Part shown: piece by piece, positions 555 to 29,535 of the stretch
How the letters are laid out: each line of letters opens with the position of its first letter
How positions within the stretch are numbered: position 1 is the first letter of the stretch
Source: a virus
Reading direction: 5' to 3' (one strand)
DNA length: 64,000 nt
IMG/VR virus record: IMGVR_UViG_3300020442_002635
Coordinates: 24,417 to 88,416 of that record
Notes under the pieces: generated by a model
Told to the model about the DNA's origin: nothing
Databases searched by the model: none
Seen by the model: only the letters and a program-made list of their open reading frames with translations
Program-made: the position numbers and the translations under genes

Positions 555-3013
555 CACTCATCTTTAAGGTAAGCATTAAACTGCATATTACTATTTTGAT
601 ATGTACTTATACCAACACTTCCAAGTTTCCATTGTGTTCCTGGAATTTGGATTGGTGATGAATATGCAATCTCACTAGTATTATTACCAACTTCTCCACC
701 ATAAGCACCAAGACCCCACGCCCACAATGTTCCATCAGTCTTCTTAGCACGACTTCCATATCTAGTACATCTAAATTCATTAGTCCACTGAGTTCCTGAA
801 ATTTGAATTGGTGATGAATAATATGCATCATTATTAAGACCCAAAGAACCGTTGGAGTTTATTCCCCATGTCCATAGGTATCCATCTCCCTTACTAGCAA
901 GACAATGGTAATTACCTGATGACACATCAGTCCATGTTCCTGGAACTTGTGTTGGTGATGAACGATTTACTACATCATTGAGACCCAAACCACCATAAGT
1001 TTGATTAATTCCCCATCCCCAAAGAGTTCCATCAGTTTTAAGTGCCATAGCTCTAGAATACCCACCTACTGCATATTTCCATTCTGTTCCTGAAATTTGA
1101 TTTGGTGATGACCTAGGAACGCTGGCGCTGCTGTTGGTCCAACCCAGGGCTCCCATGTAATCATATCCCCATGACCACAATGTTCCATCAGTTTTTGTGC
1201 AATACATTGAATCTCTTCCAACAGCCGGTACACCCCATTCTGTTCCTGGAACTTGAGTTGGTGATGAACGACTTATACCTTGATCATTAACACCATGTTT
1301 ACCATTATTATCATTTCCCCATGTCCATAATGTTCCATCAGTCTTTTTGGCTATAGTAGTTCCGTATGTTTTTAATCCACCTTCCCATTGTGTCCCTGGA
1401 ACTTGAACTGGTGATGAACGATCTACTCTATCATTTGCACCATATTCTCCATTCTGATTAAGTCCCCATGCCCAAAGAGTTCCATCTGTTTTAACTGCTG
1501 TTATACATTCCTGCATTATATCAGTATGAATATTTTTCCATTGTGTCCCTGGAACTTGAACTGGTGATGAACGTTTTATTATATCACCTTGTCCCAGTTG
1601 TCCATATAGATTATCACCCGTCATATACAAACTATATGCTGGACTAGTTAAAGCAACAGTTCCAAAATAATAACTTGAAATACCAACACTATCGCTGGTT
1701 CTCATTGTATCTTGGAATGCATTTGCAGGGAACAGTACATAATAGTTTGTACCACCAATACCAAGATCGGTTGCAGGATTAATTGTTAAAGTTGCATTGT
1801 CAATAGAGATTGTTGAACTAGATCCAACAGTAGCAACATCAAATCTTTCTGATACATTATCTTGAACAACAATTTCCCCAATCATTGCAGGGTGAATACT
1901 GCACTGATAATAATATGTTCCTGGTGTAACTCCAAAAGTATCCCAGGTTGTGGTTGCTGTTCCTTCTCCTGTTAGTGTGCCTTCACTTACACTTGCACCA
2001 CCATCACTGACCCTAATATACAGTGGGTGATCTCCGTACACACTATTGCTGAATATGAGTGTATCACCAACATTTACTGTAATAGTTACATTATTTCCAC
2101 TTACAGCACCACTTCTATCATTTCCTGCTACACCATAGAGACCAGCTCCTGGAGATGTAATTGCCTGGGTGTATGATAATTCTTCTGTTTGAATCGTAAC
2201 AATACCAACATTTGCTGAGATTGGTTTTTGAAACGTTAAAACAATATTTGTATCTGCTGCAATTCCAGTTGCACCAATACCAGGACTATAGACAAGAGGT
2301 TCTAATGCACCACCAATGTTCGTCAGTCCTGATCCATCACCACTAAATGATGTAGCTGTAATGATTCCTGTTGTATTGATACTACCTGTGGTTCCAATAC
2401 CAGCAACGACACCTTCTAAACCCGATCCATCACCATAGAATACTGATGCTGTAACAATACCAGCAGTAATACCATCAGAACTTACTGTTGCACCTGATCC
2501 AATAGTGACTCTATTTGTAGATCCATTTACTACGATACTACTAGTTCCAATGGTTGCAATACCAGTGATAGTAATGTTACCTGCAGTATCCCAATTTGGG
2601 CCTCCAGATGTTAAGTTGTAACCATATATAGATCCATCATCTACAGATGACATCTGAACTTTACCACCAAATACAAGACCATAGAAGGTCAATGCTGCAT
2701 CAGGTGCTGTTGTAAATGTAATATTACTTCCTGATGTTGTATAATCTGTTCCTGCTTCTTGTACAACACCACCAAGACTGATAATGACTTGAGCATCACT
2801 TACTGGAGTAATAGGATAACTTCCAGAAGTTAATGCAAAGGTTGTATCAGATCCATTAAAGGACCCTGATATATTATCAAGTTCCTTTATATTTTTTGGA
2901 TTTTGAGTATTGAAGTTAATCCAAACGGTACCATTCCATTGATACACATTCCCTGATGCAGTATCAACATGAATTTGGTTTACACTTGGACTTCCAGGAA
3001 ATGATAGTGCCAT
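554..3013 (-). CDS. RCC1-like 7-blade propeller fibre protein, class A, with Ig-like (Big_5-like) domain and inserted cupredoxin domain
   Basis: N-terminal MALSFP..YQWNGTVW; GIITATSFSGDGS fibre motifs; 7 repeats of KTDGTLWxWG...SSPxQxPG; H...CSIHPAM copper motif. Confidence 0.8.
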   Translation of the reverse strand: MALSFPGSPSVNQIHVDTASGNVYQWNGTVWINFNTQNPKNIKELDNISGSFNGSDTTFALTSGSYPITPVSDAQVIISLGGVVQEAGTDYTTSGSNITFTTAPDAALTFYGLVFGGKVQMSSVDDGSIYGYNLTSGGPNWDTAGNITITGIATIGTSSIVVNGSTNRVTIGSGATVSSDGITAGIVTASVFYGDGSGLEGVVAGIGTTGSINTTGIITATSFSGDGSGLTNIGGALEPLVYSPGIGATGIAADTNIVLTFQKPISANVGIVTIQTEELSYTQAITSPGAGLYGVAGNDRSGAVSGNNVTITVNVGDTLIFSNSVYGDHPLYIRVSDGGASVSEGTLTGEGTATTTWDTFGVTPGTYYYQCSIHPAMIGEIVVQDNVSERFDVATVGSSSTISIDNATLTINPATDLGIGGTNYYVLFPANAFQDTMRTSDSVGISSYYFGTVALTSPAYSLYMTGDNLYGQLGQGDIIKRSSPVQVPGTQWKNIHTDIMQECITAVKTDGTLWAWGLNQNGEYGANDRVDRSSPVQVPGTQWEGGLKTYGTTIAKKTDGTLWTWGNDNNGKHGVNDQGISRSSPTQVPGTEWGVPAVGRDSMYCTKTDGTLWSWGYDYMGALGWTNSSASVPRSSPNQISGTEWKYAVGGYSRAMALKTDGTLWGWGINQTYGGLGLNDVVNRSSPTQVPGTWTDVSSGNYHCLASKGDGYLWTWGINSNGSLGLNNDAYYSSPIQISGTQWTNEFRCTRYGSRAKKTDGTLWAWGLGAYGGEVGNNTSEIAYSSPIQIPGTQWKLGSVGISTYQNSNMQFNAYLKDE

Positions 3014-3027
3014 TATTGTCTACACTT

Positions 3028-3041
3028 TTTTAGTTATTTAT
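3028..3041 (-). promoter_or_regulatory. Late promoter-like ATAAATAACTAAAA
   Basis: Overlaps the upstream gene's stop; precedes 554..3013. Confidence 0.7.
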
Positions 3042-28375: not shown

Positions 28376-28383
28376 TATTTATA
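28376..28383 (-). promoter_or_regulatory. T4-type late promoter TATAAATA
   Basis: Perfect consensus upstream of 27653..28354. Confidence 0.75.
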
Positions 28384-28395
28384 AGTTATTAGTAT

Positions 28396-29535
28396 TTATG
28401 AAGATTTTAAATAAATGTAATTACTTTGTCTTCCCATAGGTTTCGCGACCCATCCTGCTCCCGTAACTTGAATTGGTGCAGAACGTTGCACTTCATCACC
28501 ATTAAGCAGCTGCCCATCAGAATTAGCACCCCACGCCCACAGTGTTCCATCAGTTTTTGTACAAAAACTGCTATATATACTCATTTCTACATCAGAACTC
28601 CATTGTGTTCCTGGAAGTTGAGTTGGTGATGACCTGTTTTGATTATGACCAAGACCCAATTGACCTTGACCACCCTCTCCCCATGCATAAAGGGTTCCAT
28701 CAGTTTTGGTTGCCAAGAGTCCAGAGTAACTTCCACTAGAAACATGACTCCATTGTGTTCCTGGAAGTTGTGTTGGTGATGAACGAGCAGTATTTATAAT
28801 ATTGTGACCTAAGCCTCCATCTCTATCAAATCCCCATGTCCATAATGTTCCATCAGTTTTTATACCTGCTCTATGCCAATAACTTGATGAAATCAAACTC
28901 CATGTTCCTGGAATTTGAACTGGTGATGAACGATTTACTCTATCATTTTGACCCAAATATCCATCAGTATTTTTGCCCCATGCCCATGCTGTTCCGTCAG
29001 TTTTTATTGCCATTACAGTATTAGCACCACCTGCTACACCATAAGACCACTGTGTTCCTGGAATTTGAGTTGGTGATGAACGATCTACTTTATCATTTTG
29101 ACCTAATGCACCTTGACTATTACCTCCCCACATCCATAATGTTCCATCACTTTTGACTGCACCATTTGTTGAATAACCAGCATGAATAAAATTACTCCAC
29201 TGAGTTCCTGGAACTTGTTTTGGTGATGAATAAGGCACTGTATCATTATGACCAAGGTAAGTTGGTTCAGTATTAAAACCCCATGTCCACAAGGTTCCAT
29301 CAGTCTTTATACCTTTATTTGCCGTCGAACCCCCAGCAGCATTTAACCACTGTGTTCCTGGAACTTGAATTGGTGATGAACGATCTACTTTATCATTTTG
29401 ACCTAATTGGCCATTAGTATTTGCTCCAAGGAGATATAATTGAAAAGGACCTCCAGCCCCTCCACTATATGACCAATTACCTGCTAGATATTCGTCCCTT
29501 ACGTCTTGTAAGTCCCATACACCTTTTTGTGTCAT
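28396..29535 (-). CDS. RCC1-like 7-blade propeller protein, class C
   Basis: KGVWDL...AGNW leader; 7 repeats. Confidence 0.8.
   Translation of the reverse strand: MTQKGVWDLQDVRDEYLAGNWSYSGGAGGPFQLYLLGANTNGQLGQNDKVDRSSPIQVPGTQWLNAAGGSTANKGIKTDGTLWTWGFNTEPTYLGHNDTVPYSSPKQVPGTQWSNFIHAGYSTNGAVKSDGTLWMWGGNSQGALGQNDKVDRSSPTQIPGTQWSYGVAGGANTVMAIKTDGTAWAWGKNTDGYLGQNDRVNRSSPVQIPGTWSLISSSYWHRAGIKTDGTLWTWGFDRDGGLGHNIINTARSSPTQLPGTQWSHVSSGSYSGLLATKTDGTLYAWGEGGQGQLGLGHNQNRSSPTQLPGTQWSSDVEMSIYSSFCTKTDGTLWAWGANSDGQLLNGDEVQRSAPIQVTGAGWVAKPMGRQSNYIYLKSS

What the first reader, a model, noticed from the sequence alone, without database searches (positions are those of the whole stretch)
620..29410. DNA-level homogenised repeat anchors flanking hypervariable loops, suggesting recombinational blade shuffling
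About every 150 bp the propeller genes repeat two near-invariant DNA words: tgttcctggaa(t/c)ttg..(t/c)tggtgatga(acg) and cca(t/c)a(a/g)tgttccatcagt(t/c)tt. Synonymous sites are also conserved: Ser-Ser-Pro is almost always TCA TCA CCA, the preceding Arg is mostly CGT, and Thr-Asp-Gly-Thr is ACT GAT GGA ACA. The loops between these words differ greatly. This goes beyond protein constraint and suggests concerted evolution: T4-type recombination could swap variable loops or blades among ~70 units, giving a reverse-transcriptase-free diversity generator for binding surfaces.
Basis: partly seen in the sequence, partly recalled or inferred. Interest (0 to 1): 0.8.

Follow-up and report, generated by a model that had tools for sequence, protein, structure and literature searches.

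The report
Phage propeller blades exchange DNA patches
A marine T4-like cyanophage carries nine fibre and propeller genes with 70 RCC1 blades, and its blades copy short DNA patches from one another between two unusually uniform DNA words, so the surface loops change about 16 times faster than neighbouring genes.

Summary
Nine minus-strand genes hold exactly 70 RCC1 blades. Each blade has two DNA anchors: AAA ACT GAT GGA ACA and CGT TCA TCA CCA nnn CAA ATT CCA GGA ACA. Single codons reach 85-98% there, against 21-50% in the background, and neither codon bias nor dipeptide context explains this. Invariant glycines outside the anchors use background codons. The third base is kept even where the amino acid differs, so the uniformity lies in the nucleotides.

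A sister strain from metagenomes differs by 1.7% in flanking genes. It differs by 27% in the loop between the anchors, and synonymous divergence there is 7-fold raised, which points to block replacement. One replaced patch matches blade 14 of gene F at 59/64 bases including a 6-nt indel. Another patch is a 36/36 copy between blades 1 and 3 of gene I. Junctions fall inside conserved words. A related lake phage shows non-collinear identical tracts of 83-86 nt.

So gene conversion between blades is real. A programmed, high-rate diversity generator is not shown. The window itself has only one significant tract, and the lake phage is identical across six metagenomes. Anchor nucleotides also evolve more slowly than neutral conversion allows, and the cause is unknown. 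The closest analogues are the T-even gp37/gp38 motifs and the Podospora WD40 repeats.

The parts
554..3013 (-). Gene A: fibre-like N-terminus plus a 7-blade RCC1 propeller
   Evidence: ORF. Pfam RCC1 and WD40_RLD. N-terminal part hits PHROG tail-fibre and virion-structural families. Seven units.
3038..5197 (-). Gene B: N-terminus of the A type, Big_5 domain, 7-blade propeller; collinear paralogue of C
   Evidence: Blade-by-blade identity to C is 0.47 on the diagonal and 0.21 off it.
5221..7374 (-). Gene C: paralogue of B, 7 blades
7407..9017 (-). Gene D: second N-terminal class (tail-fibre PHROG hits) plus a 7-blade propeller
9034..10659 (-). Gene E: N-terminus of the D class plus 7 blades. 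Its blade 4 (about 9577-9641) resembles the window allele of the H01 loop.
10676..13384 (-). Gene F: N-terminus of the D class plus two propellers (14 blades)
10774..10837 (-). Blade F14 segment: it matches the patch found in blade H02 of the sister strain
   Evidence: 59/64 identical including a 6-nt indel; 24 informative sites across the patch all match F14. Whole-loop identity is 0.92, against a maximum of 0.80 for any blade pair inside the window.
20318..21457 (-). Gene G: stand-alone 7-blade propeller
26479..27642 (-). Gene H: stand-alone 7-blade propeller; 12.7% divergent from the sister strain
27351..27396 (-). H02 loop patch: 25 mismatches in 46 nt against the sister strain, whose allele is F14-like
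27484..27524 (-). H01 loop patches: the window allele is E04-like (16 informative sites towards E04, against 4 for the sister allele)
28396..29535 (-). Gene I: stand-alone 7-blade propeller; 10.9% divergent from the sister strain. It was modelled.
   Evidence: AlphaFold2 pLDDT 89.8. Foldseek top hits are UVR8, RCC1 and HERC2 RLD at TM about 0.8.
29346..29407 (-). I01 side of an intragenic conversion tract (62 nt at 97%, with a 38-nt exact core)
   Evidence: The sister strain carries a different sequence here (9 of 12 nt), and all 14 informative sites in the tract match I03.
29046..29107 (-). I03 side of the same tract (likely the donor)
635..661 (-). Example of anchor B (SSPxQxPGT; the preceding Arg/Tyr codon and following xW lie just outside), beta-strand 1 plus a turn. 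One copy per blade, 70 in all.
722..742 (-). Example of anchor A (KTDGTLW), a turn plus beta-strand 4. One copy per blade apart from the first blade of each propeller.

Best explanation
The region encodes nine virion-fibre and stand-alone proteins whose RCC1-type seven-bladed propellers (70 blades) are probably binding modules.

Shown:
- Each blade has two structurally essential motifs. Anchor B is RSSPxQxPGTxW, forming strand 1 and a turn. Anchor A is KTDGTLW, forming a turn and strand 4.
- The DNA of these motifs is nearly identical in all copies.
- Short non-allelic gene conversion (templated patch replacement of 12-65 nt, up to about 190 nt in a relative) moves sequence between blades of the same gene and of different genes, regardless of blade position.
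- Junctions fall in the conserved words: anchor A, the LGQN motif and anchor B.
- This replaces mainly the 14-16-residue irregular loop between anchors A and B. The two strands after anchor B diverge by point substitutions with amino-acid changes in excess.
- Anchor nucleotides are also under a constraint that neutral conversion cannot produce.

Inferred:
- The uniform anchors are both the product of this exchange and what permits it.
- The exchange diversifies a binding face. By propeller topology the swapped loops and the strand 2-3 turns lie on one face and the conserved turns on the other.
- The phage's own T4-type recombination machinery carries it out.
For: Codon uniformity beyond bias and context, specific to the anchors.

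The third base is kept across different amino acids. At one anchor column Ile, Val and Leu all end in T in 67/70 units; the minority residues do so in 30/31, against 13.9 expected. At the next column Pro, Ser, Gln and Thr end in A, with minority residues at 12/13 against 5.2 expected. This argues against a tRNA or codon-optimum cause.

Lineage-specific, family-wide anchor variants exist in other phages. AG-345-E08 uses CCT GGT ACT. Contigs 3300010370 and 3300047562 use ATA. S-SRM01 has a different motif, R.TPVTAGGTNW, in all 20 blades.

Sister strain (L048 and L049, about 95% identical overall):
- Flanking genes differ by 1.7% (dS 0.038).
- The mid loop differs by 26.9% (dS 0.259, dN 0.321).
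- The post-B strands have dS 0.036 and dN 0.079.
- The anchors differ by 5-7%.
- 184 of 393 mismatches fall in 20 clusters, and 13 of the 16 clusters inside the blades of H and I lie between anchors A and B.

Donors: H02 in the sister strain matches F14 at 59/64. I01 matches I03 at 36/36. H01 resembles E04.

The lake relative has 83-86 nt tracts at 99-100% identity between blades at different positions in different genes, and an about 190-nt tract covering one blade. Contig 3300010370 has 32 tracts of 70 nt or more.

Fold and context.
Against: - Inside the window only I01-I03 is significant beyond the B/C paralogues, and no exact match between blades exceeds 40 nt.
- Only 2-3 of about 16 replaced patches have a donor among the 70 blades. 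The others may come from genes outside this 41%-complete record, from other phages, or from other processes.
- The lake phage arrays are 99.9-100% identical in six metagenomes.
- The sister strain is two metagenome contigs and the window is an assembly. Repeats could in principle cause chimeric assembly, although each event needs two jumps at homologies of about 9-16 nt, and the two contigs agree perfectly over 4,069 nt.
- The invariant Gly only four codons beyond anchor A is not homogenised.
- The anchor consensus is equal at 16 of 17 positions between the window and the lake phage, although flanking synonymous sites are near saturation (same-codon 0.58; p about 0.001). This needs an extra force of unknown nature.
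- No binding or virion data exist.
Confidence: 0.7

Rival explanations
1. The anchor codons are held by direct selection on the message or its translation, such as pausing for blade folding, RNA structure or phage tRNA supply. Gene conversion is an incidental consequence of the resulting homology and has no role in diversification.
For: Between-genome conservation of the anchor consensus is stronger than neutral conversion allows. The phage encodes tRNA-Thr(UGU), tRNA-Leu(UAA) and tRNA-Ile(UAU), which match the ACA and TTA used in anchor A. Most anchor codons end in A.
Against: The third base is conserved across different amino acids read by different tRNAs. The same amino acid takes different fixed codons at different columns: Thr is ACT at one and ACA at another, and Val is GTA, GTT and GTT at three columns. 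Invariant Gly columns outside the anchors show no preference. Other lineages have switched whole blocks, for example CCA GGA ACA to CCT GGT ACT. No RNA-structure test was run.
Confidence: 0.17
2. There is no exchange. Blades were amplified recently from one blade in each lineage, and the loops then diverged quickly by point mutation under positive selection. The anchors simply have not had time to change.
For: Relatives such as S-SRM01 and contig 3300010370 have blades that are similar along their whole length, at 65-72% nt outside the anchors. dN/dS is above 1 in the variable parts.
Against: In the window, synonymous sites of conserved residues outside the anchors are at equilibrium, and paralogue N-termini are near saturation. 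Loop dS against the sister strain is 7 times background. Replaced patches match other blades, in one case including an indel. Non-collinear identical tracts are flanked by diverged sequence.
Confidence: 0.04
3. The apparent mosaics are assembly chimeras created at the repeated anchors in metagenome or single-cell assemblies.
For: Anchors give 28-40 nt exact repeats, which is comparable with assembler k-mers. The H02 event rests on a single contig (L049).
Against: Each patch returns to its own context, so two switches are needed, at junction homologies of about 9-16 nt, and neither junction spans a full anchor. The H02 patch carries private differences from both parents near its right end. L048 and L049 come from different projects and are identical over 4,069 nt. 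Six independent assemblies of the lake phage agree at 99.9-100% across 63 blades.
Confidence: 0.05
4. Ordinary genome-wide codon bias or codon-pair bias explains the uniform codons.
For: The genome is AT-rich. GAT, AAA, CAA and TAT are majority codons, and context favours ACT before Asp and GGA before Thr.
Against: Observed frequencies exceed the context-conditioned background everywhere and run against it in anchor B. Control glycine columns follow the background.
Confidence: 0.01

Closest known systems
T-even phage tail-fibre adhesins gp37/gp38: conserved His-box and glycine-rich motifs flanking hypervariable segments (Trojet et al. 2011, PMC3157838, citing Tetart et al. 1996 and 1998)
   Same: Both are T4-type phages with fibre-associated binding proteins. 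[quoted passage not shown]
   Different: The fold is unrelated: an RCC1 propeller here against the gp38 polyglycine sandwich. Here there are about 70 repeats in nine co-resident genes that serve as donors for one another within one genome, whereas gp38 exchange is described between phages. Nucleotide-level uniformity of the motifs is quantified here. Host-range effects are untested here.
Podospora anserina HNWD (het-d / het-e) WD40-repeat genes: concerted evolution plus diversifying selection (Paoletti, Saupe and Clave 2007, PMC1805685)
   Same: In both, beta-propeller repeats in a multigene family are exchanged within and between genes, and variable positions lie on the interaction surface under positive selection. 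The combination was proposed there as a diversity-generating process.
   Different: The Podospora system is fungal and cellular, with a WD40 rather than an RCC1 fold. There the whole repeats are near-identical, only four codons vary, and repeat number varies. Here only two short anchors are uniform, the rest of the blade is about 22% identical, and blade number is fixed at 7 or 14. RIP plays no role here.
Segmental gene-conversion systems of antigenic variation (Neisseria pilE/pilS, Borrelia vlsE): general knowledge, not checked in a paper here
   Same: Short templated patches are copied between homologous cassettes, with conserved segments as junctions, and no reverse transcriptase is involved.
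   Different: Those systems have one expression site plus silent cassettes and dedicated cis elements, and they switch at high frequency. Here all nine genes are intact ORFs, no dedicated element was found, and the frequency is unknown.
Diversity-generating retroelements (DGRs)
   Same: Phage-encoded diversification of a receptor-binding protein.
   Different: No reverse transcriptase was found in the record (though the record is only 41% complete). There is no template/variable repeat pair. The substitution spectrum is not adenine-specific. The fold is not a C-type lectin.
Eukaryotic RCC1-like domains (UVR8, RCC1, HERC2 RLD)
   Same: Seven-bladed RCC1 fold at TM about 0.80-0.83 with Pfam RCC1 repeats.
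   Different: Sequence identity is 20-28%. The setting is a phage fibre, with a family-specific SSPxQxPGTxW / KTDGTLW signature.

Membership tests
RCC1-like seven-bladed beta-propeller (Pfam PF00415 / PF25390) | RCC1 repeat profile matches above the curated cut-off | tested here: met
   PF00415 scores 94.7-217.6 bits against a cut-off of 21.7 in all seven proteins scanned. PF25390 is over its cut-off in four of them.
RCC1-like seven-bladed beta-propeller (Pfam PF00415 / PF25390) | Seven four-stranded blades; structural similarity to solved RCC1-like domains | tested here: met
   AlphaFold2 model of gene I has pLDDT 89.8 and pTM 0.86 with 28 strands. Foldseek finds UVR8, RCC1 and HERC2 at E 1e-29 to 1e-25 and TM 0.80-0.83.
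Multigene repeat family under concerted evolution by gene conversion | Copies within a genome are more alike than copies between genomes, at sites free of protein constraint | tested here: met
   Family-wide, lineage-specific synonymous and motif variants. Same-codon fraction at the anchors is 0.77 within the window, 0.64 against AG-345-E08 and 0.55 against S-SRM01. It is only weakly differentiated from the nearest clade, at 0.74-0.81.
Multigene repeat family under concerted evolution by gene conversion | Identifiable conversion tracts with donor and acceptor, polarised by a close outgroup | tested here: met
   H02 in the sister strain matches F14 at 59/64. I01 matches I03 at 36/36, with all 14 informative sites in the tract agreeing. 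Loop dS is 7 times the flanking value.
Motif-mediated adhesin shuffling of the T-even gp37/gp38 type | Conserved motifs alternate with hypervariable segments, and exchange junctions lie in the motifs | tested here: met
   The left junction of the H02 event lies within GATGGAACA of anchor A. The I01 event runs from the LGQN word to the 3' end of anchor B. Tract ends in the lake phage lie at or near anchors. The number of events is small.
Motif-mediated adhesin shuffling of the T-even gp37/gp38 type | The protein is the receptor-binding adhesin, and exchange changes host range | not testable with these tools
   Only context is available: N-termini hit tail-fibre PHROGs, and the genes lie next to tail-fibre genes.
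Motif-mediated adhesin shuffling of the T-even gp37/gp38 type | Homology to gp37 or gp38 | tested here: not met
   Pfam and fold searches give RCC1 only. The resemblance is one of mechanism, not of family.
Diversity-generating retroelement | Reverse transcriptase near the target | tested here: not met
   No RVT_1 match in the 88-kb record. The record is 41% complete, so absence from the whole phage is not shown.
Diversity-generating retroelement | Template/variable repeat pair with adenine-specific differences | tested here: not met
   No near-identical long repeat pair exists; the longest exact match is 40 nt. The mismatch spectrum is spread over all bases.
Programmed cassette-type antigenic variation (pilE/pilS-like) | Silent donor cassettes plus one expression locus | tested here: not met
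   All nine genes are complete ORFs with start codons.
Programmed cassette-type antigenic variation (pilE/pilS-like) | High switching frequency within a population | tested here: inconclusive
   The lake phage arrays are identical in six metagenomes. No read-level data were available for the window's population.

The most novel reading that the evidence does not exclude
The two anchors are selected recombination signals. The phage keeps about 70 expressed blades as a mutual donor library, possibly open to co-infecting relatives. Its homologous recombination machinery swaps surface loops between anchors at rates far above point mutation. Anchor nucleotides are held uniform by second-order selection for this exchangeability. 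On this reading the array is a homology-guided, reverse-transcriptase-free diversity generator for phage binding surfaces, and one that is widespread in the sea (at least 7,977 homologues, none above 55% identity to gene I).
Probability: 0.3. Interest if true: 0.85.

Novelty: new variant of a known kind. Interest (0 to 1): 0.68.

Why it matters
Cyanophage host range and the phage-host arms race in the ocean depend on fibre and adhesin variation. The known routes are point mutation, exchange of fibre modules between phages, and DGRs. This locus shows a further route in a very abundant and very diverse protein family: exchange of loop-sized patches between blades of co-resident RCC1 propellers. 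The DNA signature is measurable. It consists of uniform anchors, raised dS confined to the loops, and identifiable donors.

The locus also poses a clear population-genetic puzzle. The anchor nucleotides are conserved more strongly than neutral gene conversion allows. That is the pattern expected if recombination proficiency itself is under selection, and it can be tested by recoding anchors. The anchor word fetched related arrays from IMG/VR, so it could help to find such arrays and to look for exchanged patches in metagenomes.

Tried and rejected
- Codon bias and dipeptide or next-base context as the explanation: rejected.
- Recent amplification of blades: rejected for this genome. Control columns and paralogue N-termini are at or near synonymous saturation.
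- Positional homology of blades between propellers, as expected for whole-gene duplication: none apart from B/C, so this test could not separate shuffling from saturation.
- Orthologous blades in related phages: none were recognisable even in syntenic genes.
- GENECONV-like tract test inside the window with a column-shuffle null: only B/C and I01-I03 pass, and F10-I02 is borderline.
- blastn at 90% identity or more missed real tracts, because alignments extend into homologous flanks. It was replaced by ungapped, high-penalty scoring.
- Megablast of the propeller region against isolated phages: no match.
- An IMG/VR scan with gene G gave only relatives at 49% identity or less.
- The genome search 'relatives' is not available for a virus record.
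- T4 late-promoter word TATAAATA: not enriched overall, at 6 matches against 4.8 expected.
- DGR: no RT, no TR/VR pair, no adenine bias.
- Literature searches found no paper describing RCC1 propeller arrays or blade conversion in cyanophages. Most 'RCC1' hits are culture-collection strain numbers.
- Not tried: an RNA-structure test of the anchors, and a scan for UvsX beyond the RecA profile. The RecA profile found nothing in this 41%-complete fragment.

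
Full report
WHAT IS THERE

The window is part of an 88.4-kb, about 41%-complete virus record. It comes from a T4-like cyanophage. The tail-fibre gene at 35907-41753 matches Synechococcus phages Bellamy, S-SCSM1 and S-SM2 at 72-75% nt and the PHROG tail-fibre families.

Nine minus-strand genes carry RCC1 propellers (Pfam RCC1 and WD40_RLD):
- A-C (554-7374) share one fibre-like N-terminus.
- D-F (7407-13384) share another N-terminus, and F has two propellers.
- G, H and I (20318-21457, 26479-27642, 28396-29535) are stand-alone propellers. 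They lie among apparent 2OG-Fe(II) oxygenase, glycosyltransferase and sulfotransferase genes; the relative S-SRM01 has genes annotated in this way.

Motif search and a unit HMM both give exactly 70 blades, with none elsewhere in the record.

An AlphaFold2 model of gene I is confident (pLDDT 89.8). Its closest solved structures are UVR8, RCC1 and HERC2 RLD at TM about 0.8. In the model each blade reads as follows:
- strand 1, SSPxQx;
- turn, PGTxW;
- strands 2 and 3;
- turn, KTDGT;
- strand 4, LWxWG;
- a 14-16-residue irregular loop (xNxxGxLGxNxxxx) that leads to the next blade.

The A-to-B interval is a true loop. The B-to-A interval is two strands.

Word 1 has 62 matches and word 2 has 54, against about 0 expected.

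At conserved residues the codon is almost fixed:
- TCA 62/67, TCA 63/69, CCA 64/70;
- CAA 69/70, GGA 64/70, CGT 34/39;
- ACT 43/48, GGA 51/60, ACA 48/55.

The background, taken from the other ORFs of the record, gives these codons 0.21-0.65. G-test p values run from 1e-9 to 1e-30. Conditioning on the next residue or base does not rescue bias. In anchor B the context favours the other codon: TCT before Pro, CCT before Gly, AGA before Ser. The invariant Gly of WG and the Gly of G.LG follow the background, so the effect is local to the anchors.

The third base is also kept where the amino acid differs. At one column Ile, Val and Leu are ATT, GTT and CTT in 67/70 units, and the minority residues end in T in 30/31 against 13.9 expected. 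At the next column Pro, Ser, Gln and Thr end in A, with minority residues at 12/13 against 5.2 expected. The uniformity is a property of the nucleotides, not of codon-tRNA matching.

THE BLADES ARE OLD

Outside the anchors any two blades share about 22% of residues, whether or not they occupy the same position. The one exception is the collinear paralogues B and C, at 0.47. A blade tree shows no clustering by gene, and clustering by position comes only from B/C.

Paralogue N-termini are near synonymous saturation: the same-codon fraction is 0.54-0.63 against 0.47 expected. The anchors stay at about 0.66-0.91. Recent amplification therefore cannot explain the anchors in this genome.

RELATIVES

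An exact-pattern scan with the anchor word fetched related arrays from IMG/VR. Six contigs of 47-58 kb are one 'lake' phage, 99.9-100% identical across six metagenomes, with 63 blades. It is syntenic with the window at 70-78% nt in the enzyme genes.

Other arrays:
- contig 3300010370_005113, 78 blades;
- contig 3300047562_002060, 20 blades;
- marine virus AG-345-E08, 21 blades;
- Synechococcus phage S-SRM01, 20 blades.

Each deeper lineage has its own family-wide variant. AG-345-E08 uses CCT GGT ACT where the window uses CCA GGA ACA. Two contigs use ATA for Ile and Tyr in place of Arg. S-SRM01 has another motif, R.TPVTAGGTNW, in all blades. That is the signature of concerted evolution.

Relatives also contain non-collinear identical tracts flanked by diverged sequence. 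In the lake phage, blade 6 of one gene and blade 4 of another share about 190 nt, with an exact core of at least 85 nt by BLAST and about 100 nt as I read the alignment. Other pairs share 83-86 nt at 99-100%. Contig 3300010370 has 32 tracts of 70 nt or more.

DIRECT EVIDENCE IN THE WINDOW'S OWN LINEAGE

A metagenome scan with gene I found two contigs, CEOO01009797.1 and MDSZ01097421.1. They are identical over a 4,069-nt overlap and together cover window 24779-32296 at about 95% identity.

Divergence from this sister strain:
- flanking genes, 1.2-2.5%;
- gene I, 10.9%; gene H, 12.7%;
- flanks pooled, 1.7%;
- anchors, 5-7%;
- post-B strands, 6.6%;
- mid loop, 26.9%.

Nei-Gojobori estimates:
- flanks: dS 0.038, dN 0.006;
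- mid loop: dS 0.259, dN 0.321. Synonymous differences are 7-fold raised (p = 3e-11), which point mutation under selection cannot produce and which indicates replacement by diverged template;
- post-B strands: dS 0.036, which is background, and dN 0.079. This is 13 times the flanks (p = 2e-17). dN/dS is 2.2, which is not significantly above 1.

Mismatches are clustered. Twenty clusters hold 184 of 393 mismatches, and 13 of the 16 clusters inside the blades of H and I lie between anchors A and B.

Donors were found for three events:
- The sister allele of blade H02 equals the window's blade F14 at 59/64, including a 6-nt indel; the 24 informative sites across the patch all match F14. F14 is in a different gene about 16.5 kb away and at a different blade position. 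Whole-loop identity is 0.92, against a maximum of 0.80 for any pair inside the window.
- The window allele of I01 equals I03 at 36/36; all 14 informative sites in the tract match I03. The sister strain has 9 of 12 nt different there.
- The window allele of the H01 loop is E04-like, with 16 informative sites against 4.

Junctions lie in conserved words. For H02 the left junction falls within GATGGAACA of anchor A. The I01 tract runs from the LGQN word to the 3' end of anchor B. The mismatch spectrum is not adenine-specific, and no reverse transcriptase is present in the record.

WHAT IS NOT SHOWN

- Inside the window only I01-I03 passes a tract test whose null keeps column conservation. Exact matches between blades are at most 40 nt.
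- Most replaced patches have no donor among the 70 blades.
- The lake phage arrays do not vary among six metagenomes.

Exchange is therefore demonstrated over evolutionary time: about 16 patches in 14 blades while flanks accumulated dS 0.04. It is not demonstrated as a rapid programmed process. Adaptive value is an inference.

Assembly chimerism is a caveat, but I consider it unlikely. Each event needs a double switch at short homology, independent assemblies agree, and the H02 patch carries private differences.

A RESIDUAL PUZZLE

Between the window and the lake phage, flanking orthologues are 78% identical in protein. Their same-codon fraction is 0.58, near saturation, and control columns in the blades give 0.51. 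Anchor columns give 0.74, almost the within-genome value of 0.77. The consensus codon is the same at 16 of 17 anchor positions, and the chance of that at p = 0.58 is about 0.001.

Lineages of individual copies accumulate mutations at the mutation rate whether or not they are converted. Neutral conversion therefore cannot hold between-genome identity this high. I conclude that the anchor nucleotides are under additional constraint. The evidence points away from tRNA or codon optimality. Selection for exchangeability, an RNA- or DNA-level function, or gene flow through the anchors all remain open.

COMPARISON WITH KNOWN SYSTEMS

The closest mechanistic precedents are two:
- The T-even adhesins, where exchanges occur in or near conserved motifs that flank hypervariable segments (PMC3157838).
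- The Podospora HNWD WD40 genes, where propeller repeats undergo concerted evolution within and between genes while surface residues are under diversifying selection (PMC1805685).

This locus is not a member of either protein family. It differs in the following ways:
- an RCC1 fold;
- only two short uniform anchors in otherwise unrelated blades;
- a fixed blade number;
- loop-sized tracts;
- donors that are co-resident, intact genes.

It is not a DGR and not a silent-cassette system. I found no paper describing it.

The family is very large and diverse.

VERDICT

I rate this a new variant of a known kind, with interest 0.68.

Noticed in passing
window 42074-42613 (- strand): Three phage tRNA genes: Thr(UGU), Leu(UAA) and Ile(UAU). 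The first two decode ACA and TTA, the codons used in anchor A of this phage.
   Followed up: partly
window 27653-28354 (- strand): The gene between H and I has no Pfam or PHROG hit, yet it is also unusually divergent from the sister strain (5.8%, dS 0.10, dN 0.044). It has two mismatch clusters at 27723-27742 and 27799-27831.
   Followed up: partly
window 13402-26458: The genes interleaved with the propeller genes look by sequence like 2OG-Fe(II) oxygenases, glycosyltransferases, a sulfotransferase-like protein and a TPR protein; they were not scanned here. The arrangement is syntenic in the lake phage and AG-345-E08 at 60-78% protein identity, and S-SRM01 carries genes annotated in this way. 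This suggests a conserved modification module for the propeller proteins.
   Followed up: no
window about 1800-2100 (gene A, residues about 300-380): Gene A carries an extra segment ending ...YYYQCSIHPAMIGEIVV. By eye it resembles a cupredoxin (plastocyanin-type) copper site. Pfam did not report it at E <= 0.01.
   Followed up: no
window 13415-13422, 26476-26483, 28376-28383, 31891-31898 (- strand): TATAAATA, the T4 late-promoter word, lies about 18-40 nt upstream of four gene starts (F, 25868-26458, 27653-28354, 30496-31854). The word is not enriched in the window overall.
   Followed up: partly
window 9037-9064 and 10679-10706: A 28-nt identical stretch spans the start codons of E and F and their upstream leader (ATAAATAACTAAAAAACACCATGAGTCA, coding strand). 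Further 33-38-nt identities occur in the D/E/F N-termini.
   Followed up: no
L007 (Synechococcus phage S-SRM01, NC_070963.1 217583-240842): The three RCC1 genes of this isolate have blades that are 72% identical in nt even outside the anchors, with a lineage-specific motif R.TPVTAGGTNW. It is a cultured system in which blade homogenisation is more recent.
   Followed up: partly
L010/L033 and five further IMG/VR contigs (3300020578_003511 and others): One phage was recovered at 99.9-100% identity from six different metagenomes, with only 1-3 SNPs in 13 kb of RCC1 array.
   Followed up: partly
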